Below are positions 7,863-61,879 of a DNA stretch of 64,000 nt, in pieces (position 1 is the first letter of the stretch; the number at the start of each line of letters is the position of its first letter). Made by a program: the position numbers and the translations under genes. This DNA comes from Camelus dromedarius (lineage: Eukaryota): positions 76,262,001 through 76,326,000 of the forward strand of contig NC_087436.1 in NCBI RefSeq assembly GCF_036321535.1, read 5' to 3'. The notes below the pieces were generated by a model. The model saw nothing but the letters and a program-made list of their open reading frames with translations, was not told the origin of the DNA and made no database searches.

Positions 7863-8084
7863 CCATAGTACAGCTGTGCAGATGGGAAGAAGAAAGAGTT
7901 TTCAAGGAGGCCGTAAATAATCCAAGTCATTAGGATCTGGGCTAGACTGTTAGTTGTAGGGATGAAGAGGAATAGGTAAATAAATACATAGAATAAAGTA
8001 AGAGCTGTCAGGATTTGGTGTCACTGGCTATGAGCTGATATTTGGGGAAAGTCAAGGACTGTTAATTAAGTAACTAGTCAGTAA

Positions 8085-10380
8085 TTTATCCACTAATTCC
8101 ACAAACATTTATTGAGCATCTACCATATGTCATGCACTGGTCTAGCTGCTAGGGTTGTCATGGTGAAAAAGGCAGACAAGTCCTTTGATTTCATGGAGCA
8201 CACATTCTCCTGAGAGGGAACTGACCAAAAGCAAATAACCAATAGAAAGTATCTGGTAGCAGTAAGTGCTATGATGAAAATAAAAGAGGAAAGCAATAGG
8301 GAGGGATTAGGGTCTGTTTACGTAGTCTGAATACTCCAGACAGGACTCTGAGGAATTGACACATACACAGAGATCTAAATGATGGGAAGGAACCAATCAT
8401 CTGGGGGCAAGTGTCCCAGCAGAGGGACCAGCAAGTACAAGAGCCCTGAGGAAAGAATGAGCTGGACGAGCTTGAAAAACATGAAGGAGGCAAGTAGTGG
8501 GAAAAGAGTATAAAGAGATGAAGATAGAGCAGTGAAAAGAGTCTGCTTTTATCCAGGGTGTTGGATGCCAGTGGGCTAATTTGGAAGGTTTCAGTAGAGC
8601 AGTTATGTGATATCAATTCTGTTTTTAAAGAAAGGCACTCTGCCTAACGTGTAAGAAAGGAATTATGGTACAACAAGAATAGAAGCCAAGCAATATGTTA
8701 GGGGACAATAGTAGCAGTCTAGTATGTAGCTATAGAGATGGGGTTCATGGATTTGGGAGATATTTTGCAGGTAGAATTGACAAGACTTGATTAGATATAG
8801 AAAGGAGAGGAAAGGAAAGGATTTCTAAATATTTGCTTGAGTAGGTAGATTATGGCTCTATGTATTGACATGTTAACAACTTGAGAGGTCTTGGAAGTTA
8901 TGTTTTGAGTATGTTAATAAGAAGCATGTTAGAAATACAAATGGAAGTATCAAGAGGTCAATTGGATAGTCAATTGTATTATTGGATAAAAGTCAATTAT
9001 AGGTAAAGTTCAAGGCTTGAGAAATAAACCTCAGAATCACTGGAAATATAGATATTCTTTAAAGCCACGGGACTGGATGAAATCACCTGGTAGATAAAGA
9101 AGTTGTGATGTATATATATGATGCAATACTACTACTAAATGAAATAATGCCATTTGCAGCAACATGGGTGGACCTAGAAATTATCATACTAAGTGAAGTA
9201 AGTCAGAGAAAGACAAAGATCATATGATATCACTTATATGTGGAATCTAAAAAAAATGACACAAATGAACTTATTTACAAAACATAAACAAACTCACAGA
9301 CATAGAAAACAAACTTATGTTACCAAAGGGGGAAAGCAGAAGGGATAAATTGGGAGTTTGGGATTAGCAGATACAAATTACTACATACAGAGTAGATAAA
9401 CAACAAGGTCCTACTGTATAGCATAGGGAAATATATTCAATATCTTGTAATAACCTATAATGAAAAGAATATGAAAAAGAATATATACATGTATAACTGA
9501 ATCACTCTGCTATATATCAGAAACTAACACAACATTATAAATCAACAATACTTCAATTTAAAAAAAAGGAAATTCAATGTTGTAGAACTTTGGGTGATGA
9601 ATATGACGGACAATTCAGAACTGGAAAAACCAAGTGTCCAATAAAATTATTAAAAACTGCTAAAAAAAAAAAAAAAAAAGAGAGAGAGAGAGAGAAAGGA
9701 GTTCCAAAATCTGAGGCTATCTGATATTTAGGTCTATCTGAGAATAAGGAGTCAGCAAAGGAATGGTCGGTAAGGACAGAGGGAACATGAGCTGAGAGAA
9801 GTATCTTAAGAGTCAAAAACAGAGGAGCTTTCCAGGACGGAATGGTCTGATGCTGCTGAGAGCTCTATAGAGATGAGAACAGAAATGTTACTGTTGGATG
9901 GGAAAATGTGTAAATCATTGGTGGTCTTAATGTGCAAGCTCAGTGGGTGACGGGGCAGAAAGCCGGCTGGAACAGGATGAGGAAAAATTAGGAAGTGATG
10001 CAATAAAGGCAGAGACTATAGACAACTTTTTAAAGAAATTTTGCTCTGAAGTGGGTAGTAGAGAGCAGAATGTTAAGAAGATTTTTTGAATAACAAAACT
10101 AAAAGTTCTTTGTATGCTAATGAGAATGATCCAGTGGAGATGAGAAAACTGATAATGTGGTGTAAAAAGAGTCCTAATTGCAGGAGGAAATCGTTTGAGG
10201 ACCCCAGGGCCGAGGAGGTGGGAAGGGTGGTGGTGGAGACCTGACTTTTGATAGGAGGGACCTGTCTTCCATTGAAACTGGCAGGAAGGCAGAAATGATA
10301 GAGGTCCAGGTAAACCAGTAGACTGAGCATTGGGGAGCTAAAGGAATTTGTCTCATTGCTTCTTTTTAAATCAGATTTCA
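8085..10380 (-). mobile_element. Long LINE-2 (L2a-like) remnant, interrupted by an L1 insertion at ~9092-9703
   Basis: 3' end caaacatttattgagcatcta at ~8100. Degenerate RT peptide in ORF 9806-10003 (PAGFLPRH..KTTNDLH..SVLISIELSAASDH). Confidence 0.8.
9105..9567 (+). mobile_element. 5'-truncated LINE-1 3' end (cetartiodactyl type)
   Basis: atgccatttgcagcaacatgggtggacctagaaattatcatactaagtg...caacaaggtcctactgtatagc...atcaacaatacttcaattt(A)8. Confidence 0.92.
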
Positions 10381-22996: not shown

Positions 22997-23223
22997 TTTT
23001 TTTTTATTATTTTATTTTTAATTCAAGGGTAGTTGATTTACAGTGTGTCAGGTACACAGCAAAGCAATTCAGTTATATATACACATTTTTTTTTCAGATT
23101 TTCCCCCATTATATGTTATTACAAAAAACTGAATATAGTTCCCTGTGCTATACAGGAGGTTCTTGTTCTTTATGTATTTCATATATGTAATGTATATCTG
23201 TTAATCCCAAACTCCTAATTTAT
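22997..23223 (-). mobile_element. Short LINE-1 3' end
   Basis: Poly(T) then tagttgatttacagtgtg...atagttccctgtgctatacag...gttaatcccaaactcctaattt. Confidence 0.88.
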
Positions 23224-24407
23224 TATATGAATTTCTTATCAAACTCTGATTAACGGTTTTTATAATGATTGGTTATAAAAATTCACTTCCTTATGAATCT
23301 TGCTTTATACTTTAACTCTTTTGATATCCATTAAATAAGTTAACACTTTCTCCCTCCAAAAAAACAAAAATTGTCAGATATCTTGGATAAGTACTGTTTC
23401 CCATTTTATGGGTAAAGAATCTCAAAGGAAGCAACTCTTGTCAATGTTAGGATTGTGACCTTAGGCAGAACATTAGCTAAGAAGGGTCGTGCTCTCAGAT
23501 TGTGGGTACCAGGGCATCCTTCTTTCCCAAGGGAAGGTAACTCTAACCTCTTGATGTGACTCTGTGATAGCCCAGGTATAATCTTATTAGCAATGGAGAC
23601 AGCAAGTGACAAGTACTAATAAGTCTGAATCAATGCCGCAGAACCAGCCACCACTGCCAATGAGCCGTGGCATGGTTCAGCTTGGTTTCCCCATGCACTT
23701 CCAGGTGATGGAGATGTCAGGGTTTAACATGTCCAGTTATGCTACTAATGACAACCTGTTGTACCTTCTGAAATGAGGCACTGGTACCCATAGGAGCAAG
23801 CACTCCTAGACACTGAGAGAGGAGAACTATTTTGGGAAGCTGTGATAATGACATGGAATGACACTGAGCAGTGCTTCTTCTGAAAGATGCAGGCAGATGA
23901 TTTTCCTAAGGTATGCAAAATATGTTCCCCTGTTTGTATATGGAAAGAAAGGATGGCTTACAGAGGGAGCAATACAATGAAATTTGGTTTTATACCTTGT
24001 ATACTTCAAAACATGTTTCAGCACAAAGAGCATTTCAAGTTACAACCCAGACTTCTACTGGTATTCAAGGTGCCCCCACAATCAGCCTTACCTACCCTGC
24101 CACTTCTGTCACTTGTTCCTTTCACATCCTTCCTGCTCTGGTCAACACAGGCTACTCACTGTTACTGATTTAGCAAAATTCAGATAAACATTTGATCAGT
24201 GTCTACCATATGCTTGGAATTTTACTAGAAACTAAAGAAAGGAGGAGGAGAAGTCATTGCTTCTGTCCTGAAATATTTGGAGATCTAGTGGAAAAGACAA
24301 GCAAATACATAAATGAATCTGAAATGAAACAGAATTAACAGTAGGGAAGGCCAAGTATGAAAAAGGTAAATTGGGGTTATATAAGAACATTAAAGAGTTT
24401 GTGTAAT

Positions 24408-27400: not shown

Positions 27401-27845
27401 GTTTCTTTCAGCAGATAGACTCTGGTCTGAGAAAAACCATTTGGATGACATTTTAGAACTAAATCAGTAATGCTTCCCCAATTGTTTTGGGGGAGAATAT
27501 AACCAATATTCTTTTGACTTGGATAATGAATGATATCTCTCTTTCATACTCCTTGAAAGGTTTAAAACTTGCTGGGCATAAGTTGAAAGCTTTGCAAAGA
27601 AACCAGGTAGCCTTCTTTCTATGTATGAAAACACAGACCTTTCACTTTAAGGGTCAAAATAATTAGAATGCCTCTAATGAATTAGATGGCCCAGACTGAG
27701 AGGGAGATCACCAGGTCTTCCATGAGTTCTTTTATCTCTACATTATGCTTTTGTTTTTAAGATATGATTGTTTTATTGATTTTTTTAAGGTTCAGGTTGA
27801 TATATTTGGCCATCATTTTCTTCTGCTCCATGGCATATTTTTCTT

Positions 27846-28487
27846 TCTTCCTTTTTTTTTTTAATTGAAGTATAGTTGACTTACAATATTGTGTTAGTTT
27901 CAGGTATGTAGCAAAGTGACTCAGATATATAAATATATATATATACATATACATATATGAATTCCCTTTCATACTCTTTTCCATTATATATTACAAGATA
28001 TTGAATATAGTTCCTTGTGTTACACAGTAAATCCTTGTTGCTTAACCATTTTATATATAGTAGTATATATCTGTTAATACCATACTCCTCTTTCCTCCCC
28101 TCCTCTTTCCCCTCTGGTAACCACAAATTTGTTTTCTATGTCTTGTGAGTCTGTTTCTGTTTCTGTTGTGGAAATAAGTTCATCTGCCTGTTTTCTAGAT
28201 TCCACATATAAGTTATATCATATGGTATTTTTCTTTCTCTTTCTGGCTTACTTCATTTAGAATGACGATCTCCAGGCCCATCCACTTTGCTGCAAATGGC
28301 AATATTTCATTCTCTTTATGGCTCAGTAATATTCCATTTATGGAATGTATACCACATCTTCTTTATCCAATAGTCTGTTGATGGACATTTAGGTTGTTTC
28401 CATGTCTTGGCTATTGTAAATAGTGCTGCTGTGAACACTGGGGTGCATGTATCTTTTCGAATTAGTTTTTGTCTTTTCCAGATATAT
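27846..28487 (-). mobile_element. 5'-truncated LINE-1 with perfect 17-bp TSD
   Basis: L1 3' end. CATGGCATATTTTTCTT at 27829-27845 and 28488-28504. Confidence 0.95.
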
Positions 28488-28908
28488 CATGGCATATTTT
28501 TCTTAGTGAGAATTCTTCATCTGTCATTTATTTTTCCTTGCCCTTCTTTTCTCTTTTAATTGTTAAAATATTTGGGCTGAGATAGTTACATACTTTAATA
28601 CAATTAAAATTGAGGATATCCTCTATTTAGCAGAATTTCCTCTTATTTAAGAGCCTCAGTACCTGTAGATAGCATTTTCTCAACGAAAAATATTATAGTC
28701 TACAGAGGAATCAACTGAGTGTCAACAATTTTAATTTTATTAATCACAAAATGCAATTTTAGAGAAATTTGCAGGCAATTTTATTAAATGATTAAAATAA
28801 TATAATATTGAAAAAATATATTCTTTAGAAAAGTGCCCATGACACAGTGTAAGAGCCAGATACAGCTAAGAAACTAAAGAATGTGAATATGAACCAATAA
28901 TAACTAGC

Positions 28909-29109
28909 TTTTTTTTTTGATCACCTTCACCCATTTCCCCCATCCCCCAGTTCCCACCTCTGGCAACCACCAATCTGTTCTGTTTCTACAAATTCGATAT
29001 TTTTAGATTCCACGTATAAGTGAGATCATACAATATTCATCTTTCTCTGACTTATTTTACTTAGCATGATACCCTCAAGGCACATCCACGATGTTGCAAA
29101 GGGCAGGAT
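28909..29109 (-). mobile_element. Older L1 (L1MA-like) 3' fragment
   Basis: cctctggcaaccaccaatctgttc...tagattccacgtataagtgagatcat...acttagcatgat. Confidence 0.8.
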
Positions 29110-34920: not shown

Positions 34921-35626
34921 TTTAGGTTACTGGAGAAATAGGCCAAATGGTATATAGATATGTTTCCTATAAGCAGCATATTGCCAAACTGTGTATGTGT
35001 GTGTGTGTGTGTGTATTCAGTCTGATAATACAGTTATATTTACTGTGATATTTTGTACATTTGTATTTTTTTCTGGAAGGAATACATGTCCTGTTTGTTA
35101 CTCTTGTTGTCTGTTTGTATTAAGTTTTTGTTTACTCTTGTCTTTCTGTCCAATGTTTTGACAGTGACAAATCTGCCTCCTCACAGACACAGTCCATGAC
35201 TACAACCAGGCCTTATTCTTTCTGCTCTGCCAGGGCATTACTATGAGATGTCAGAAATGGCTTAGTTTCTAGGCATTAGGCTATATATTTTTCCCCACTA
35301 CCCAACTCCCTGTAAATCTGTTATCTGAACCATCAAGTTGACAACACTTTTTTCAGCCTTTTATCAGGAGATACTGACTCCAGTTACCTGATTGCCCTGG
35401 ACCTTTTTCATTTCCTATCATCCCAAAGGATGCTTTTCTGCTGCTGTCTGCTCCCAGATCTGTGGCTCATGGTGCTCATGTGTTTTGGTTTTTATGGTCC
35501 ACAAAGATGTTTATCTTACTATTGAATATTGAACCTGGCTAAGTTGTTTTGGTCATTCTTTTTTATATTTTATCCATCTTCACTATCTATAGAGGGCAGG
35601 AGTTTGCCAATGAATGAACCCACTTT

Positions 35627-35996
35627 ATTTTTTTTTAATTCCAGTAACTTTATTAGATTGCATCCATGAACTTCAGTATAGATAATGTTCATATTATAAT
35701 ACTGTGATTAAAGATTTTAATAGTAAAACAATCAGGTTTCATGTGAAGTTCTGAGGCCCTCAGAACTGGACACTCACTAAAAGTATCTGCTTTCAGGCTA
35801 AGTTCTAGATCTCCTCTTCAATATCTGAAAAAGTCAAGTTAAGGTCTAAGTATATATTCAGAAACCATAGTAAAACTGAGAAATAATCAAACTAAAGTTA
35901 AATTGGCTACAAAAATCTCAATTGTGCCTAGATCATTCAATTTAAGTCTTGCTTCTGTTTATATTATTCTTATTTATTTAATCTCTAAAAGACTAC
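35627..35996 (-). pseudogene. Retroposed non-L1 insert (3'UTR-like processed fragment or orphan transduction)
   Basis: 12-bp TSD TGAACCCACTTT (35615, 35997), AATAAA 12 nt before a poly(A), TT/AAAA target. Confidence 0.8.
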
Positions 35997-38900
35997 TGAA
36001 CCCACTTTTAATGAATATCTCTTACCCACTATCTACCAGTTAGTGGTTAAAGAATAAAGAGAAATATCTGAATATTTAAATATTTGTACCTATTGAACTT
36101 AAGAGCTACTTTAACTGTCGATATTCATTGGGTATTGTGTGTCCTTAGTCCTTTGTGTTTAATTACTATTAAAATATGAATTATTGTTCACAATAATAAT
36201 GTTGCATTCACCCATTTTTGGCAAATTTTACACTGTATCATATGTAAGACCTCTTGGCACTTGTTATATGGGGAAGTGGTAATGAAAGTAATGAACATAA
36301 ATAGGGATAAAATAGGGATAAAAGTAATGTTCTAGATTTTGGTTCCAAAATCCATCTATAGTAATAGAGGACAGCAGAGATGTGATTTAATGGAAGCATA
36401 CATGGCAAGGATGTTAGCACTTTAGGTGAATAAAAGTCCTGTATGAATTATCAATATAAGTCTGCCAAAAAAATCTAATTCAAGTTAGACACAATAATAG
36501 AAATATAGTGATGAGAAAGATTGTTGGATAGTCCCCCCTTGCTCACTACTAAATGTTTACTCAATACTAAACATTGACTATTACTGTCAATTCCAAATGC
36601 CACACTATAAAAGAAACTAACCTGGAGCTTATCTAGAGAAAAGAAATCAAAATGTTAAAAGGTTTGAAAAACTATTATAAATAAGGAACATTTTAAGATA
36701 TGAGCTTTGAAGGAATTTATAGGTGTCTTCAAATATTTCAAGGATATTAATATGAATAGAAGATTAATCATACTTCGTGTAGTTCAAGAAGACAGAACTA
36801 GAATGGATAGCTGTATGTTCCAGGTTTTCTAGTTCTAAAAAATTAGAATTTTTTAGGAATTTCATAAATATTAGAATTTTGGGGAAAAAATTCAGCTGTC
36901 TTTTCACTGTAACAAGTTTCATTGACGTTGTTCGGGTTAATGCTAACCGATGTTATAATAGATTCACACCTTCAACTGAAGATTGTATCAATATTTTTTC
37001 CTTTGAGGTTCTACCATTTACCAAGTTATATACCTCACTAAACATATTCATTTTTATAAACCCTTGTGAATTCCATTCCTGCATTATGTGTCAAATTTCC
37101 TTTCATTTGCTCTGACTTTACAAATGTTGTTCTATCCCATTTTTATCCATCACTGCCTTTGCTTTGCTTATCTCTTCTTGTCTATAAATCTCAGCCCCAA
37201 TGTGACTTCTTCCTAGAAGCCTTCTTGATTTTTTATTGTTGTTGTTGTTACAAGTCTATCTCCCCACTAAGTCATTAATTCCTTAAGATAAAATACTGTA
37301 AATCCTATAAATATACCTATCACTCTATACAGTGCTTGACATAATGGATAGATGGATGGGTGGATTAATTAGTTGATTAAGATTTGTATCATTCTAGCCT
37401 AAACAGAGACAAGACATATGTCAGCATTTCTGCAAAAGAAGCAAGACATATAGAAAGAAAGTGGCCAACGTCAAGGCATATTGTTTTTGGACCAGGAAGT
37501 AAAATAGCTCTACGATAATAACAAGGTAACAAAGGACAACAGAAAAAAATTTAAATTGAAAAGAAAAGCTGTAGAAGCTTGAAAGGGAGAGTAAAAATAT
37601 GTGCTTGTAAACAACTAATATCCCCTTTGTGTATTACTTGTTTTCTATGGTCAATTCAACTCAAATAGTCTTTGATTATAATAATTTTGCATGAAGATTC
37701 AATTTTACTGATGATGTAAGAGACTAGAACACTCTAGAGAGAAAATTCTATTTTATTGATATATTTCTAAAATATCCCATTTAATAAATAGCACTTTACT
37801 TCTTTTACAATGTGAAAGGCACCTGCATTTTATATTGGAAATGTATGGGCCAAGTTTCTATGTGACCAAATAAATCACTACTGTGCTTTCATTTGATAAC
37901 TTTACCCTTATGTAATCCTGTAGATATGAAAGTATATATGGGAAACACCAAGATAATTGTTTTATGGAGGGAAACTAGTATTCTCTCATGCCTGTAGCCT
38001 TTAAAAAAGATAAAAAGAAGGAAAAAAACCTTATTAGTGCATGCTTGGAAAACAATTGCATTCATTTTCCTGGCAGAAGATTAAATTATTGTACATTATA
38101 GTGTGCATGTCTATGATAAGTAGGTTACTATAGATCATTTCAAGAGAAGGTGGAGGAAAGACTGCACTAACATCAGCTTCTCTGGTATTTGCAGGCTGTA
38201 AATTTCTTTAAATGATAAATGTAAAGATGGAAGACAGCTGGACAGAGGAAAAGACAGAATCAGATACTGGATGAGTTAGTACTGCAGCGCATGCTCCAGC
38301 GCTGTCTTATTACCACAAGGCTAGCAAACATCAAAGCCCCCACATCCCCCACTCCCTCCCCCTGAAATGTACCGATTTATATGAAAATTAAGATTACAAA
38401 TTAAAGCCTGGCTATCCTGGAGTTTTCCAGTTCATCAGCCATCCAATAAAAATGATGTCAAGCCTGTATGCATAATTCCCAGAAGATTACTTTGTCCTTA
38501 CAGCTAAGCCCTGTCCCTGATATGAAAGATCTCTATCCACTTTTATTGAAATAAAGAACTAACATCATAATCCCAATATTGAGGTATAATCTTCATTATC
38601 TCCTGACCCTCTTGAGGTTCCCCCAATCTATATTACTTCAGATTTGTTTATTTATAATCCTTATGTATTTACCTTTATTGAGATAGGATTAAAAACTGAA
38701 AAAAAAAAAAAGCTCCAAAAAATCCTTATGATCTCATGATTGAGTTTCAGTTCACCAACAATCAACTAATGTGTTAGACTGAGTTTGTTTTTTTTTTTTT
38801 TTTTTAAAGTGGCTCTTATGGTTGTATAGTCTAAGCTTGGAAAGGCATTAATTGGTCCCCGGAGTGTTGCTGTTTCATTAAATGAATTATTTCAATTCCA

Positions 38901-50600: not shown

Positions 50601-52714
50601 AATTCATCAAATTATATATGTAATATACCAAACTATATAAATACAGTGTTAAAACAATCTCTAGTTAGCTCTGTTCTACTTAAAATCTTTCTCAGGTAGA
50701 GTGTAGTAACTGAGGAGAAGCCAATAACCACAAAGATGAGATCAATATTACACAACTCATTCTATACAGATATTTTTTAAATTGATAAATTTTTTAAAGG
50801 CTTGTTCATTAAAAAAAAAAAAAAAAGTCTTGATAGAGCCCTCCAGGATTTTTAGGCAGGGGTAAATTTGACAACACTTCTCTCAAGGCATTAAGTTTTG
50901 TTTAATTTTATCTTCCCTTTTAGACTGATTTGCTGCCTTTGTCTTAAGCTTCGACCAAATGAATTGGTCACTGTGAAACCTTCAGGTTGTTAAATGACAG
51001 ATGCAAAGAAGGATTCCTCTGAAGATACGCTCTTTCTAACCTTCATGAACTTACTGTATCTAAATTTTTATAATGTATGGAACCATAAGTGAATAAAAGT
51101 AAAATGGGATTAGTCTGCTATACAGATGAGGTTTCAGCATCAAAATGTACGAAAAATATAGTCCATTTACCCTTAAATGCTATAATGTAAACGTCAGCCT
51201 GTCCTAATCACTGGAGTATACTAAGCTCCAAGCCAGGCAAATACAAAATTTTATGAATGAGTAAATTAATCAAACAGTAATTATTTTAATTATATGCAGT
51301 GTGTGTCACTCATGATTCATCTTTGTTATGAGAAAGTTGTTGCTTTTTTCACATGTGAGTGTAAGGTGAGTAGGTTTAGAATTTAAAGTTTCTAAATTGA
51401 CTCTTGAAATTCTGAAGGTGTTATAAAGTTCTTAGATGGAAATTAAATAGTCTTTTAAAACTACTTTTCAGTGGCTGCTTAGTATTAGTGTTACTGTGTA
51501 GTAGGAAGAACAGTAATTGTTTTTTGACTTTCCATGTTGATTTTTCACATTTAAGAGTGAAGAATAGTATAATGAACCCCTCAAGTACCCAACTTCAACA
51601 ATTATTACATATTGCCATTCTTATTTTATCTATGTCCCCCTTCCCAACCTCTCCCCGCCCCCCTGTTTTTTGGCTGGAGTATTTTAAAGTAAATCCTAGG
51701 CCTCGTATTATTTCAACCAATTATTTCAATATGTATCTCTAACAGATAAGGACTTGAACATAATACTACAACACCATTTAGCTCACCTAACAAAATTATT
51801 AACAGTTCCTTAATAGCATACAGTCCACGTTCAGATTATGCCTGGTCATCTCAAAATGTATTATATTTGGTTTTTTTAAATCAAGATCCAAACAGTGTCC
51901 ACAATGGTTGTATTTGGTTAATATATCTCTAAACGTGGTTTTAATAGATAAATTCCTCCTCCCATTTTTAAAAATGACGTTTATTTGTTGAAGAAACCAG
52001 GTCATTTGTTCCGTTCAAATTCTCTCATCTGGATTTGGCTAATTGTAGCTTAACATGTCTCTCTCTTTTTTTTTTTTTTTTTTTTAAATAAAAATGATAG
52101 ATCTAGAGCTTTGTTTGGATTCGAGATGAATTTTATACACGCACACATACATAAGATTTTCTTTTTGCAAGAATATTTCATAAGTGACCCTGTGCACTTC
52201 CAATTGCATTAGGAGGCACATATTTGTCTCTCTTATCATGATGTTGAACATTGACTTCAGATGTTGCCAGTCTGATCCATCATTGCAAAGTGCTCCAACT
52301 TTTCACCTATTAGCCACTGATGACAACTGGCTAGATCTATTATTTCATCAAGAGTTGCAAAATGGCAATTTTACAATTCAATCATTCTTTCTGCCTTTAT
52401 TAGCTGTCATTCTATAAAGAAGAAATTTCTTTCATTAATTATGTGGATACCTGAAATAAAATTCATACCGAAAAGACAGGATAAATACTTGTTTCTTTAC
52501 TGAATTTAATCTACTTTCAGTATTGAGTCCTTATAACTTCCAATACTGAGCAATGAGTTTCCCCCAACCCACTCTACACTCCTCCCGAATGTCAACAGGT
52601 GGTTTTCACAGTGAAACCTAGCAGAGCTAGAATGGGATAGAATAGGGCCGACCCAGGTGTGGTGCAGGAATTTAGGGGAGAAAGAGACTGGGTCAGGGAA
52701 GGGAGAAGGCATAC
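47674..52714 (-). other. NAA11: Predicted 3'UTR intron of NAA11 (~5.0 kb)
   Basis: Donor AAG|GTATGC 12 nt after TAG (G of GT at 52714). Acceptor TTCCCTTGTCCTCCCTCCTCCCCTTTCTCTTGGCAG| ending at 47674. Confidence 0.7.
51540..52500 (-). mobile_element. L1MC-like 3' region (inside predicted NAA11 intron)
   Basis: gaatagtataatgaaccc...atttcaatatgtatctctaacagataaggac...gaagaaaccaggtcatttg...gaaaagacaggataaatactt. Confidence 0.75.
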
Positions 52715-52726
52715 CTTAAGCAGGTT

Positions 52727-53422
52727 CTAGGAGGTGGAATCTGAGTCTTCTGAGCTGTCCTGGACGTACGTGCTTTCCGTGGACTCACTGGGTTCCTTGC
52801 TGTCAGTGCCACTGTCGTCAGCAGCCGCGTTCTTCTCCTCCCAACAGGCCTCTTTGGAACCAGGAAGTATGCTGCCCTGGGTCTCCTGGTTCTTCCCGGA
52901 GCCCGGCACCAAGTACCTGCCCTTCCCCTTCAGCTCCAGCTGCCTCCTCAGCTCATCTGCCATCTGCGAGAGATCCCGCTTCATAGCGTAAGCATCTTCT
53001 CCATCTGCGTAATATTTGGGTTCCACCTCACTAATCTGAAAGTTGAGGGTGTTAGAATAGAGGTGCAGGGCTGCCCGGTTACTCTTCCTGACATGCAGGG
53101 ACACGTACTTGGCACTAAAGTTCTCTATCATGGCCCGGGAGGCCTGGTCCATCAGCTTTTGGGCCAGGCCGAGGCGCCGGTGTGAACGCTTCACGGCAAG
53201 CGAGGTGATATGTCCGTGGGGGACGTCATCTGGGTCCTCCTCCATTTTGGCCAGGACGTAACCCACCATCTTCCCGTCCTCGGCCTCAGCGATGTAGGAG
53301 AGCTGGGGCCAGGAAAGGCCATGGTAGAAATAGTATTTCATCTGGTAGTTCTCGGGAAGGCAGAGGAGGTTGCAGTGTTGCATGTTCATCAGGTCGTCTG
53401 GCCGAGCATTGCGGATGTTCAT
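52727..53422 (-). CDS. NAA11: N-alpha-acetyltransferase 11 (NatA catalytic subunit paralog ARD1B), single-exon CDS retrogene, 231 aa
   Basis: ATG at 53422 in CCGCCATTATG context. [31 protein letters not shown]... GNAT fold with acetyl-CoA motif RRLGLA (82-87) and E24, S37, K136 retained. NAA11-type residues (PDDL, RDLSQM, QETQGS, DSKEP, VQDSSE.SDSTS) rather than NAA10-type. No introns, frameshifts or stops; TAG at 52727-52729. Confidence 0.96.
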
Positions 53423-53705
53423 AATGGCGGCAGGCAGCAAGCCGATCTGACGGCAGTGACCGGAGGAGGAGAAGCTGCCGCCAAGCACCAGGGACCCGGT
53501 TTGCCTTGGGAGTCTGGGTCCAGGGCCCGAAGCCGCGGGGCTGGATGCTGTGGATGCTGGATAGCGGGAAGGCTGGCAGACGGGGAGACGGAAGAGGCGG
53601 TGCTAAGACGCGGCTTCCGGAAGCCCGCCCCTAGTTGCAGCCAATGAGGTCCTCACGTCATTGTGCGCGCAAGCTCGCAGGGCTTGGCGGGGCGGGGGTG
53701 GGAAG
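52760..53705. promoter_or_regulatory. CpG island covering NAA11 promoter, 5'UTR and CDS
   Basis: The only extended GC- and CpG-rich stretch in an otherwise CpG-depleted window. Boundaries approximate. Confidence 0.85.
53560..53705 (-). promoter_or_regulatory. NAA11 TATA-less proximal promoter
   Basis: Palindromic ETS site GGCTTCCGGAAGCC 53612-53625, GC boxes 53625-53630 and 53686-53698, CCAAT 53641-53645, CRE-like TGACGTGA (minus) 53653-53660, E2F-like TTCCCGC (minus) 53564-53570. Confidence 0.75.
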
Positions 53706-57559: not shown

Positions 57560-58892
57560 TTGTACTAATATTCATTTCCAACCTCTCACCCATAAACCAT
57601 GTATCTTAGACTTACTTTCCAACCAGCTTCCAAGGAGATTTGGTCCATAGGAAGCCTGGGGGTGGGAGTGGGGTGGGGGATGGGAGAGAAGAAGGATGGG
57701 AGAAGCCAAGGTGTTTCTCTCCTACTAGCTTATCTTTGGATAGCATCTTCCTGCAGTGGCTGGTTTCCCCTGTGGTTTTAGCTACCCACCAGACAGCCTC
57801 TGCTGAATTCTAGTTTTCCCACCAGGCAACCATGGCTTCTAGTCTCTGGTAATAAGACTTACCCTTTTGTCCCTCCAGCCCTAGAAGTGGTGCTGGTTTC
57901 TTACCATTGCTAATCTTCTGGTTGCATCACCATCCCCTGTTGGCTTCTCAGCTCTTCTATCACTTATTACACATGTATTAAGTTTCTCAATTTAAATTAT
58001 CTGCTACCTCATATCAGTCACAATGGCCATCATCAAAAGGTCTACAAGTAATAAATGCTGGAGAGGGTGTGGAGAAAACGGAACCCTCCTACATTGTGGG
58101 TGGGAATATAAACTGGTGCAGCCATGATGGAGAACAGTATGAAGGTTTCTTAAAAAACTAAACATAGACTTACCATATAATCCAGCAATCCCACTGCTAG
58201 GCAAATATCCAGAAAAGATGAAAATTCTAATTTGAAAAGATACATGCACCTCAAAGTTCATAGCAGCACTATTTACAATAGCCAAGATGTGGAAGCAGCC
58301 TAAATGTCCATTGACAGACAGATGGTAAAGAAGACATGGTGTATACACACACACACACACACACACATACACATACACATACACATATATATAAGGGAAT
58401 ACTACTCAGCCATAAAAAAGAATGAAATAATGCCATTTGCAGCAACATGGATGGACCTAGAGATTATCATACTCAGTGAAGTAAGCCAGACAGAGAAAGA
58501 CAAATAACGTATGATATCACTTATATGTAGAATCTAAGGGAAAAAATGATACAAATGAACTTATTTACAAAACAAAAAGAGACAGACACAGGGAACAAAC
58601 TTTTGGTTACCAAAAGGAAAAGCAGGGGGAGGGATAAATTAGGAATTTGGGATTAACTGATACACACTACTATATATAAAATAGATAAACAACAATGACC
58701 TGCTATATAGCATGGGGAACTATATTCAATATCTTATAAAAACCTTTAAAGGGAAAGAATCTGAAAAATTATATATATATAACTTTGCTGTATACCTGAA
58801 AATCAATTATGAATAAACTGTACTTCAATTTAAAAAAAAGAAAAAAGAAATAAATTACCTGGAATGATTTGTTGGCTGGTCCCTGACTGATA
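57560..58892 (+). mobile_element. ERVL solo LTR (LTR41-like) split by an L1 insertion
   Basis: cttttgtccctccagccctagaagtgg...gcttctcagctctt. Terminus ggtccctgactgata resumes after the L1 at ~58862. Confidence 0.65.
58004..58850 (+). mobile_element. 5'-truncated LINE-1 (ORF2 C-terminus plus 3'UTR)
   Basis: Degenerate CCHC region [17 protein letters not shown]; poly(A). TSD TAAATTA(T/C)CTG at 57993 and 58851. Confidence 0.95.
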
Positions 58893-59358
58893 GAAATTAT
58901 AGTGATTGACTATGTTTTTAATGTAAATTCAAATTTTATGTTATTTTTCTCAGTCTGACATACCAAACCTAAATACTGCAGCCACTTAGAATGATAATAA
59001 GGCAAAATATTCAGAGACAGTCATGGATTCACTGTTCTCAGGTATGAGAAAGGAAAACTTCTTTACATTAATGGAATTCCTGCTGGCAGCGGTACCAGAA
59101 ACCTGTTCCATCAGTTCTATATTATTACCATGTACGTGTCCTGGCTGTTCCAAGCACCATTAGAAAGTCAAGCACTATAAGGGTTTTGGAGATTGTCAGA
59201 CATCACTTGTAGTTAGTATTGTGTCAGCAGCAATTTGCATGCAAGATCTTAAACATCATTGCATGCAAATAGATGTGGGAGTGAAGAGTGGCAGTAGAGA
59301 AGGAGTGATGCCCAGAGACTAGCTGATACATCTCAAGAGAAGAGCTCTTTAAGAAATT

Positions 59359-59556
59359 AGGGGTTTGAGATTAGTAGATACAAACTACTACATATAAAAT
59401 AGATAAACAACAAGGTCATACTGTATAGCACAGGGAACTATATTCAACATTTTGTAATAACCTAGAAAGAAAAAGAATATTTATAATTGAATCATTGTGC
59501 TATACACAGGAAGTTAATACAATGTTGTAAATCAACTATACTTCAATTTAAAAAAA
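59359..59556 (+). mobile_element. Short LINE-1 3' end
   Basis: gggtttgagattagtagatacaaactac...atcaactatacttcaattt(A)n. TSD AAGAAATT at 59351 and 59557. Confidence 0.92.
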
Positions 59557-61879
59557 AAGAAATTCTGCTGGGCATAGTGAGAAGAACCTTGATTTCAAAT
59601 TTTGGTTCAAACATTTATTTAGCTGTGCTCTGGGGCAGGCCACTTATCTTTTGGGGGCTTTTTCTTTTCTCCTCTAGAAGATGGAAATCTGTATACCCCG
59701 CTACCTTGTTTTGAGAATGAAATGGGATAATGTATATGAGAGCTTCACGCAAAGGACTATTATTATTATCAAATATGACTTTTTTTTTTTATGGAAGAAG
59801 TGATCTTGAAGCCCTGAAAGTGCAGACTGACAGATGAACTTGATGAGAACAAAAATTTGGCACAACATAAAGGGTATGCAGCAGATGTAGAATGGTAGAA
59901 ATTATGAATAGGTTTCAAAATAATTCGATTAAGAAAAGTAGTACTGGAATGACTAAAAAGCAAGGGAACAATAGGCTCTAGCTTTTGAAAAGGACACAAG
60001 AGGGAAAACTAATTTATTTCACATTTTCCCATTTAAATTTTATAATTTGTTCTGTTATTAGTTATAGAACCAGCCTTTTTGTAAAACTTGGCTGACATAT
60101 TTTATCCCATGATCTCTTTGGAGCATTGGGTGCAACCAAGTGCTCTCATCTATATTGTAAAGTAGGAAGTAGAGTGATTAAGTGAGAGAAGTAAAACTAC
60201 TTGAGAAATTAGTCATAAAGTTTTAGAGAGAATCTAGGATGCCAAACTCCTACATAAATTGCTTTTGGTTTCCTGGTTGCCAACATTTATAAATGTTGTT
60301 GCCTTATAATCTCCATGCTGCCTGGTCCTGTCACTTTTAAAATGGTTGACTCAATTTTTATTGTGTGTATGTGTCTGAGCATGTGGGCACACCAGAATTC
60401 AGCTCCTTAAAAAGTGAATTCTTTCTCAAACTCAAGGAGCTAATAAGCCTTCTCAGAAATTGTCTATGAGGAAAACTCAGTTTTGTTTTTCTAGCGTTTG
60501 TTTCACAAAGAAATTTTGTTTAGCAACCATGCCAAATATAGTTTTATTGTTGGGTTGAACTACATGATATCATGAATCTTTTCTAGGTGTAAAGTTCTAT
60601 GATTATTAGCCTAGCACAGATGAATTTTGCTGTTGTTGGGTTTGGAAGTCCAAACTGGTGGGACTGCAGTGGGTGTCAAAGAGGTGAAGGATGATGTGTT
60701 GATGTAATACTGTGATACTGAGTTGAAATTCAGTGAATGAAAATCATTTCTTCTAACCTAACAGCAAATGACGTTAAAATGTTTATACTAAAAGGGGAAA
60801 ACTAGTGGATTCTTTTTTCCTCAGTGTTAGGGAAAATTCTTTGTAGTAAATAATTTGCTATCTTTTTCAAGCCACAGCAGCAACACATACACAGTACCAC
60901 CCTGTTTACAACCATTCCTGTAGTTCTAGGCTAGAATTAACTTGCAAAGTAGAATGTGTTAGTGTCCAATAATTTAGGGATACACAAAAATTCTTTCTAA
61001 CTGATTATGAGAATTAACACTTTGTGAAATCTGATTTAGCATCACTTTGTTATAAGTGATGAGTGTGCGAGAGACATGGTCATATCTATACAGAGTCTTA
61101 CTGCAGAGTGTTGTTCCCGTCATAACTGTAGGTCAGATAATTTGCTTTAGCTATTGTGGTCATCAGATTCAGAACTGGCTTTGGAGAAGCAGAATTAGAT
61201 TTTGAAGCATTAGTGTAAAAACAGAGAATTGGCTTGCCTTTCAATATTTCATCAGGAAAAATCATGAGTTCAGGTTTCATGGAGTTTCTTGGGACCCTTA
61301 CTACGGTAATTCCCCCTGATTGACTATTCAAGATGCATAAGCAAAACAACTCCATGTTATGAACATAGGTTGTATGTTTCAACTGGATAAATAATTCACC
61401 CACAATCAAGTTGCCACTTAAATACTGGGTTATGATTCACTTTCTAATTAATCCAAGAAATGTGAAGCATATTTAAAATCTTTTCTTTCCCTCAATTTTC
61501 TGCCTCTGTGTCTTTCTCTCACTGTTATTAGCACTTGGGTTTTGTCTCGGCTTCACTTCCCCAACACAGCACAGATTGAACATGCAAAGCATACACCTCA
61601 GAAGAAAGATGACACCTGGGTCACTAGTCTCCTGGCTCACTTTGCTAATCTACTTCAACTGCCATCACTAATTAGGTTGAAGAGATGACTACTACCATGG
61701 CTGTTACTGCTGTTGCTGTATTTAAATGCACTTGGAGAGCCATACATAATTTTTTTTTTCCACTTGGTGAACTTATTACTCAATTTCTAATCTAGGAAGA
61801 CAAGAGAGTAACTTTCTAGAATTTGGGGTCCTTTTTACAGGATTGTATACTCTTAATGGTGCAGTATGTCCTCCGTTGT

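What the first reader, a model, noticed from the sequence alone, without database searches (positions are those of the whole stretch)
35615..36008. Orphan ~370-bp retroposed cellular sequence with TSD, AATAAA and poly(A)
Seen: a perfect 12-bp direct repeat TGAACCCACTTT (35615-35626; 35997-36008) flanks an AT-rich insert. On the minus strand it ends ...ctAATAAAgttactggaatt(A)n, and the target reads TT/AAAAGT, the canonical L1 endonuclease site. The body resembles no L1 or SINE I recognise and has no listed ORF. Inference: a 5'-truncated retrocopy of an mRNA/lncRNA 3' end, or an orphan 3' transduction; gene and repeat annotators would probably miss it. It is a second retrocopy ~17 kb from the NAA11 retrogene.
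Basis: partly seen in the sequence, partly recalled or inferred. Interest (0 to 1): 0.7.

Follow-up and report, generated by a model that had tools for sequence, protein, structure and literature searches.

The report
Old retrocopied RNA tail in camels
This is a 370-base dead copy of the tail end of an RNA, most likely pasted into the camel genome long ago by LINE-1 enzymes; a related stretch exists elsewhere in the genome, so it is an ordinary but easily missed kind of genomic fossil.

Summary
In detail: exact 12-bp repeats (35615-35626, 35997-36008), an A9 tail, AATAAA 12 nt before it and a TTTT/AA site. The repeat alone is common (15 in the window). Repeat plus tail plus signal occurred in 2 of 150 simulated windows, and in 0 of 150 with the cut site added. 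The window is Camelus DNA beside NAA11. One of two camel DNA runs held a second locus matching the insert body but neither flank: 29 mismatches in 201 columns, with homology over at least 274 of 360 nt. The insert is therefore a copy of sequence from elsewhere, about 16-18% diverged, as old as neighbouring L1 fragments, and present under both species labels with no empty allele seen. Best reading: a 5'-truncated, L1-made retrocopy (mechanism about 0.9), from a 3' UTR or lncRNA end (0.55) or an orphan transduction (0.22). The source is unnamed and its poly(A) site unseen. The match sat at the 80% cut-off, so further copies are not excluded. RNA runs gave no sign of use. It is an ordinary new member of a known class.

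The parts
35615..35626 (-). Target-site duplication, copy at the element's 3' end (13 bp if 35627 is a mutated position)
35628..35636 (-). Remnant poly(A) tail, A9, separated from the repeat by one T at 35627
35649..35654 (-). AATAAA polyadenylation signal, 12 nt before the tail
35637..35996 (-). 360-nt non-coding body, 29% GC, 5'-truncated copy of an RNA 3' end (inferred)
35667..35940 (-). Part shown homologous to a second camel locus: 35697-35909 aligned by the tool (29 mismatches, 13 gap letters), plus 30-nt loose ends on each side (22 of 30 and 25 of 30 identical, counted by hand)
35742..35772 (.). Short hairpin, 15-nt arms, 87% complementary; the insert as a whole does not fold better than shuffles (z -0.89)
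35997..36008 (-). Target-site duplication, copy at the element's 5' end
36006..36011 (+). L1 endonuclease-type site TTTT/AA, nick inferred between 36009 and 36010
   Evidence: motif as in PMC7058536
52727..53422 (-). Context only: intact NAA11 coding sequence, same strand as the insert, 16.7 kb upstream of it

Best explanation
A dead, 5'-truncated retrocopy of the last 360 nt of a polyadenylated cellular RNA (3' UTR or lncRNA end), made by L1 target-primed reverse transcription in a camel ancestor. Steps: (1) a transcript from a second locus was cleaved 12-14 nt after AATAAA and polyadenylated [signal and tail shown; cleavage at the source inferred]; (2) L1 ORF2p nicked the + strand at TTTT/AA, and the T-rich end primed on the poly(A) [motif shown, event inferred from known L1 biology]; (3) copying stopped after about 360 nt [the source contig runs on about 1.4 kb upstream with no listed match to this flank; truncation inferred]; (4) repair left a 12-13 bp duplication [shown]; (5) the copy decayed to 14-16% mismatch and an A9 tail [shown] and spread [present under both species labels; fixation inferred]. 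It most likely does nothing. The L1 mechanism as such I put at about 0.9; the confidence given here is for a cellular mRNA/lncRNA donor.
For: All three retrotransposition hallmarks occur together (hallmarks as in PMC12016303), which is rare by chance. A second locus at similar depth (10.9 against 13.1 for this locus) matches the body only (X14 record 2); the chance of the loose-end matches is 8e-7 and 9e-9. The two sequences differ by a net 11-nt gap, there is no ORF, and 0 of 6 frames scanned hit Pfam. The body is not like local L1 ends (10-180 of 200 shuffles score as well). An L1 copy of similar age in the window keeps an exact 17-bp duplication, so a perfect repeat fits this age. Weak hints of direction: 11 sites are A/T here and G/C there against 5 the other way (p 0.21), and one CpG of the other locus reads CpA here.
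Against: The source's 3' end (35637-35666 equivalent) and the 5' 56 nt were not visible, so a genomic poly(A) site without a tail was not shown. The second locus may be a sibling copy and not the parent. It appeared in 1 of 2 DNA runs and in 0 of 2 RNA runs, so it is not shown to be transcribed. Its identity with gap letters is 80.4%, right at the 80% cut-off, and the tool drops human-like records, so those blanks are weak. No empty site from an outgroup could be read. In tumours, transductions (3,669) far outnumber processed pseudogenes (274) (PMC7058536), so the prior does not clearly favour an mRNA donor.
Confidence: 0.55

Rival explanations
1. Orphan L1 3' transduction: an L1 transcript read through its own weak poly(A) signal into unique flanking DNA, ended at this AATAAA, and was 5'-truncated before reaching L1 sequence. 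The chemistry is the same, the donor differs.
For: Same hallmarks. The second locus is AT-rich unique DNA and was not seen in two RNA runs. Orphan transductions are defined this way and transductions are common (PMC7058536).
Against: No L1 sequence was shown upstream of the second locus; only 30 letters of each loose end were printed, so this was not testable. A perfect AATAAA at a usable distance is expected of real gene ends, though transductions also use such signals.
Confidence: 0.22
2. Member of an old low-copy repeat family (non-autonomous retroposon, or the U3-R end of an LTR element retroposed by L1); the second locus is a sibling copy.
For: The one match was at the detection limit (80.4%). 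Copies of the local L1 family differ pairwise by K2P 0.145-0.274, so many siblings would fall under the cut-off. No repeat library (Dfam/Repbase) could be searched.
Against: Only 1 paralogous record over the body in 2 whole-genome runs. No second copy in the 64-kb window. No Pol III A or B box with up to 1 mismatch, no tRNA, no Rfam family. Camelid SINEs are reported as almost all MIRs (PMC8605555).
Confidence: 0.12
3. No retroposition: a DNA-level duplication or repair patch, or old unique DNA in which the repeat, A-run and AATAAA coincide by chance.
For: 12-bp repeats are common here (15 in the window), the tail is short, and the null criteria were chosen after the fact. No empty site was seen.
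Against: Joint hallmarks in 0-2 of 150 simulated windows. Independent homology to a second locus is confined to the sequence between the repeats, with no listed match of that record to 415 nt of left or 442 nt of right flank.
Confidence: 0.07
4. Template-switch chimera: the last 20 nt or so are a decayed tip of the local L1 3' end, and the rest was copied from another RNA.
For: BLAST shows a 28-nt, 82% match between the insert's tail region and the L1 end at 58812-58839.
Against: E-value 0.81, mostly A/T letters. The body without its tail scores no better than shuffles against six L1 ends.
Confidence: 0.04

Closest known systems
L1-mobilised processed pseudogenes (retrocopies), 5'-truncated, UTR-only
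   Same: Poly(A) remnant, AATAAA close to the tail, short target-site duplication, TTTT/A cut site, a source locus elsewhere (class described in PMC12016303 and PMC7058536, passages read).
   Different: No coding sequence and no exon-exon junction, so the usual defining test cannot be applied; parent not named; tail worn to A9.
Orphan L1 3' transductions
   Same: Unique DNA moved without its L1, with the same hallmarks (PMC7058536).
   Different: No source L1 shown. Most described cases are recent human or tumour events, whereas this one is about 16-18% diverged from its relative.
Old L1 3' fragments in this window (six copies; the family looks like artiodactyl L1, name recalled, not tested)
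   Same: Same integration marks, similar age (K2P 0.145-0.274 in 13 pairs against 0.16 here), one with an exact 17-bp duplication.
   Different: The insert body has no significant similarity to them.
NAA11 retrogene (Ard1b)
   Same: Also an intronless retroposed coding copy (called a retrogene in a reference title seen in PMC6063908), same strand, same window.
   Different: NAA11 is intact, coding, present in human and mouse and testis-expressed. The insert is a non-coding fragment, and no link between the two was found.

Membership tests
L1 TPRT insertion | Target-site duplication of about 7-20 bp | tested here: met
   12 bp exact, 13 bp with one mismatch
L1 TPRT insertion | 3' poly(A) tail next to the duplication | tested here: met
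   A9 then one T; short, as expected for old copies (inference)
L1 TPRT insertion | Endonuclease site TTTT/A | tested here: met
   36006-36011 on the + strand
L1 TPRT insertion | Empty orthologous site with one copy of the target | not testable with these tools
   No genome held; no joint or empty allele in 4 of 4 runs laid; no outgroup run among the 24 listed could be identified
Processed pseudogene | A source locus elsewhere that matches the body but not the flanks | tested here: met
   X14 record 2, at least 274 of 360 nt, no listed flank match; seen in 1 of 2 DNA runs
Processed pseudogene | Source is a transcribed gene whose cleavage site coincides with the tail junction | tested here: inconclusive
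   Source 3' end not printed; no diverged RNA contig in X19, and only 2 partial reads under 90% among 12.9 million in X24
Processed pseudogene | Loss of parental introns (exon-exon junction) | tested here: inconclusive
   The aligned 213 nt are colinear with genomic DNA, largest gap 10 nt; no junction is expected inside a last exon
Orphan 3' transduction | Source lies just downstream of an L1 | not testable with these tools
   Only 30 letters of each loose end were printed
SINE (Pol III, tRNA/7SL-derived) | Internal A and B boxes or an RNA-derived head | tested here: not met
   None with up to 1 mismatch (recalled consensus); no tRNA; no Rfam hit. A 5'-truncated copy could have lost them.
SINE or other interspersed repeat family | Many genomic copies / library consensus | tested here: inconclusive
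   One paralog at the 80% cut-off; no repeat library available
L1 3' end | Similarity to the L1 3' UTR | tested here: not met
   Against 6 of 6 local copies, 10-180 of 200 shuffles score as well; other L1 families not tested

The most novel reading that the evidence does not exclude
The insert is a copy of an undescribed, low-copy camelid retroposon that lacks Pol III boxes, ends at a Pol II poly(A) signal and was spread by L1. Or, less likely, its AATAAA, which lies on the same strand as NAA11 and 17 kb downstream of a splice donor-like site just behind the NAA11 stop, has been taken over as an alternative 3' end of NAA11 transcripts in testis. Against the second: an X19 contig runs through the tail and the repeat without a break, and no pile of read ends was seen.
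Probability: 0.1. Interest if true: 0.45.

Novelty: new member of a known kind. Interest (0 to 1): 0.17.

Why it matters
It matters little as a single locus. It is a clean example of a class that junction-based and protein-based retrocopy catalogues leave out, and it shows such copies can be found from hallmarks alone even at 16-18% divergence. If the source is named, the copy preserves the poly(A) site that the source used millions of years ago, and its presence or absence in alpaca, pig, cattle and whales is a nearly homoplasy-free phylogenetic marker (established use of retroposon insertions, my own knowledge). It opens no long-standing question.

Tried and rejected
No whole genome is held, so the proposed genome BLASTN could not be run. 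Rfam: 0 hits at gathering score in the window; 2 chance-level hits (E 0.48, 3.1) near the insert. No tRNA/tmRNA. No unusual RNA fold: 21 of 100 shuffles fold as well. Coding origin rejected: 12 stop-to-stop frames of 20 aa or more overlap the insert, longest 66 aa; 6 of the 12 were scanned against Pfam, 0 hits. An 18-nt motif shared with the second locus was sought in JGI metagenome contigs, in hope of host-derived contigs: 4 matches, all 45-58% GC with no homology beyond 18-20 nt, so chance; 0 in viral contigs. No match in phages or plasmids. Expression: RNA run X19 covers insert and both flanks evenly at depth 2-5 and 99%+ identity, which reads as DNA or unspliced RNA and is not evidence of transcription; X24 gave 2 partial reads. 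A link with NAA11 as a 'retrocopy cluster' was rejected. Earlier notes of this scan held nothing on this locus. Keyword searches showed no paper on this insertion, but such searches cannot find an unnamed locus. I could not recall a parent gene.

Full report
Setting. The only convincing long ORF in the window is NAA11 (52727-53422, minus strand). [quoted passage not shown] The window protein differs from the shared ferus/bactrianus sequence at one residue. The window is therefore Camelus DNA, probably dromedary by exclusion (inference). No whole genome is held.

Observation. The two 12-bp repeats are exact and at the stated places. Read on the minus strand, the 370 nt between them end in AATAAA (35654-35649), 12 nt, nine A and one T. 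The + strand carries TTTT/AA at 36006-36011. A nick there implies a 13-bp duplication whose last position has changed in the left copy. The repeat alone proves nothing: the window has 15 exact repeats of 12 bp or more at 60-1000 bp spacing, and order-5 Markov simulations average 11.5. Only 2 of the 15 have an A-tail beside them. One is this element, the other lies inside an L1 fragment. Repeat, tail and AATAAA together arose in 2 of 150 simulated windows, and with the cut-site motif in 0 of 150. The criteria were set after seeing the element, so these figures flatter it.

A second locus. Of 24 runs listed, 16 DNA runs under two species labels hold all 32 sampled words of the body, all marked as possible sources of this DNA. 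I laid 4 of the 24 on 35200-36450 at an 80% cut-off. DNA run X14 holds the whole stretch unchanged in one contig (depth 13.1). It also holds a second, 2,837-nt contig (depth 10.9) that aligns to 35697-35909 with 29 mismatches and 13 gap letters. Its 30-nt loose ends stay in register with the insert: 22 of 30 and, after a one-base shift, 25 of 30 letters agree by my hand count, with chance probabilities 8e-7 and 9e-9. Homology thus spans at least 274 of the 360 body letters. No piece of that contig is listed on either flank, although it runs on for about 1.4 kb beyond the insert's 5' end and 1.1 kb beyond its 3' end. This is independent support that the sequence between the repeats came from elsewhere, and it argues against a segmental duplication. 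The limits are real. The identity with gap letters is 80.4%, at the cut-off. The contig did not appear in DNA run X16 or in the two RNA runs, and the tool removes human-like records silently. So I cannot say that the second locus is the only relative, that it is the parent and not a sibling, or that it is transcribed. Its last 30 nt before the tail and the first 56 nt were not printed.

Age and spread. X16, under the other species label, carries the insert in two overlapping contigs with 2 differences in the right flank; no joint or empty allele was seen in any of the 4 runs. The distance to the second locus is K2P 0.16, standard error 0.03 (transition share taken from the 23 listed of 29 differences), or JC 0.18 with the loose ends. 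Six old L1 3' ends in the window differ pairwise by K2P 0.145-0.274 in 13 pairs, and one keeps an exact 17-bp duplication. The insert therefore belongs to about the same epoch, and a perfect 12-mer is no sign of youth (probability 0.15 at distance 0.16). In years the range is wide: 16-36 million at 5e-9 per year (the rate used in PMC8605555), 40-90 million at 2e-9 (a generic rate, recalled). That is older than the dromedary-Bactrian split (about 4.4 million years) and may or may not be older than the split from other even-toed ungulates (55-60 million; both PMC9374477). Direction is only hinted at: 11 sites are A/T here and G/C there against 5 the other way (p 0.21), with one CpG decayed on this side.

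What it is not. There is no Rfam family, no tRNA, no Pol III box (recalled consensus), no notable fold and no Pfam hit in 6 of 12 short frames. It has no significant likeness to the local L1 ends; a 28-nt A/T-rich match at the tail has E 0.81. There is no match in phage, plasmid or viral collections, and four metagenome motif hits are chance. No repeat library could be searched, so a low-copy family stays open.

Mechanism. A polyadenylated RNA from the second locus, or from a common source, was bound by L1 proteins. ORF2p nicked the + strand at TTTT/AA, the T-rich end primed reverse transcription on the poly(A), copying stopped after about 360 nt, and repair duplicated 12-13 bp. The marks and the related locus are shown; the steps follow from known L1 biology (hallmarks in PMC12016303; definitions in PMC7058536). 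I put this mechanism at about 0.9. For the donor: 3' UTR or lncRNA end 0.55, orphan transduction 0.22, low-copy repeat family 0.12, L1-tip chimera 0.04; no retroposition 0.07.

Function. None is shown. RNA run X19 covers insert and both flanks evenly at depth 2-5 and 99%+ identity, and one contig (35396-35708) passes through tail and repeat. That fits DNA carry-over or unspliced RNA, not cleavage at this signal. X24 gave 2 partial reads under 90% identity among 12.9 million, about 1 in 100 of that run. The insert is on the NAA11 strand, and NAA11 has a donor-like GT 12 nt after its stop, so use as a distant 3' end is not excluded, but nothing supports it.

Comparison and verdict. It works like, and passes the testable hallmarks of, an L1 target-primed insertion. 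Membership of 'processed pseudogene' is likely but unproven, since the parent's transcript end was not seen. The class itself is long known and common: camel genomes carry about 350,000 L1 fragments (PMC8605555). Nearness to NAA11 is best read as coincidence. New member of a known kind; interest 0.17.

Papers, as seen. PMC8605555: part 1 of 8 and passages, supplements not held (a repeat library there could bear on the family question). PMC6063908, PMC12016303, PMC8017666, PMC9374477, PMC7058536, PMC2584115: passages only. Others: search listings only; none of these listings concerns this insertion.

Noticed in passing
window 27829-28504 (-): 5'-truncated L1 3' fragment with an exact 17-bp target-site duplication (27829-27845, 28488-28504), although it is K2P 0.19-0.27 from its neighbours; used as the age control.
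   Followed up: partly
window 9138-9575, 22999-23225, 29000-29105, 58205-58850, 59350-59565: Five more 3' fragments of the same old L1 family; family name not tested.
   Followed up: partly
window 52709-52726 (-): A splice donor-like site (AAG/GTATGC) 12 nt behind the NAA11 stop codon suggests the retrogene gained a 3' UTR intron; I recall a two-exon human NAA11, not checked. The downstream exon was not located.
   Followed up: no
window 53420-53700: GC- and CpG-rich stretch just upstream of NAA11, the only 2-kb bin near 49% GC; likely its promoter island.
   Followed up: no
window 36049-36084: A 36-nt stretch of the right flank matches another locus (5 mismatches) in both DNA runs, with unrelated loose ends; short, possibly chance or a repeat remnant.
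   Followed up: no
window 35774-35789: The insert has 12 letters, including a 10-nt block at 35780-35789, that the second locus lacks; which side changed is unknown.
   Followed up: no
window 36095 and 36368: Two single-base differences in run X16, one of them also in X19: ordinary variants in the right flank.
   Followed up: no
window 8001-10000: Strongest strand skew of the window (GC skew 0.30, AT skew 0.21), overlapping the L1 end at 9138-9575; probably L1 body.
   Followed up: no
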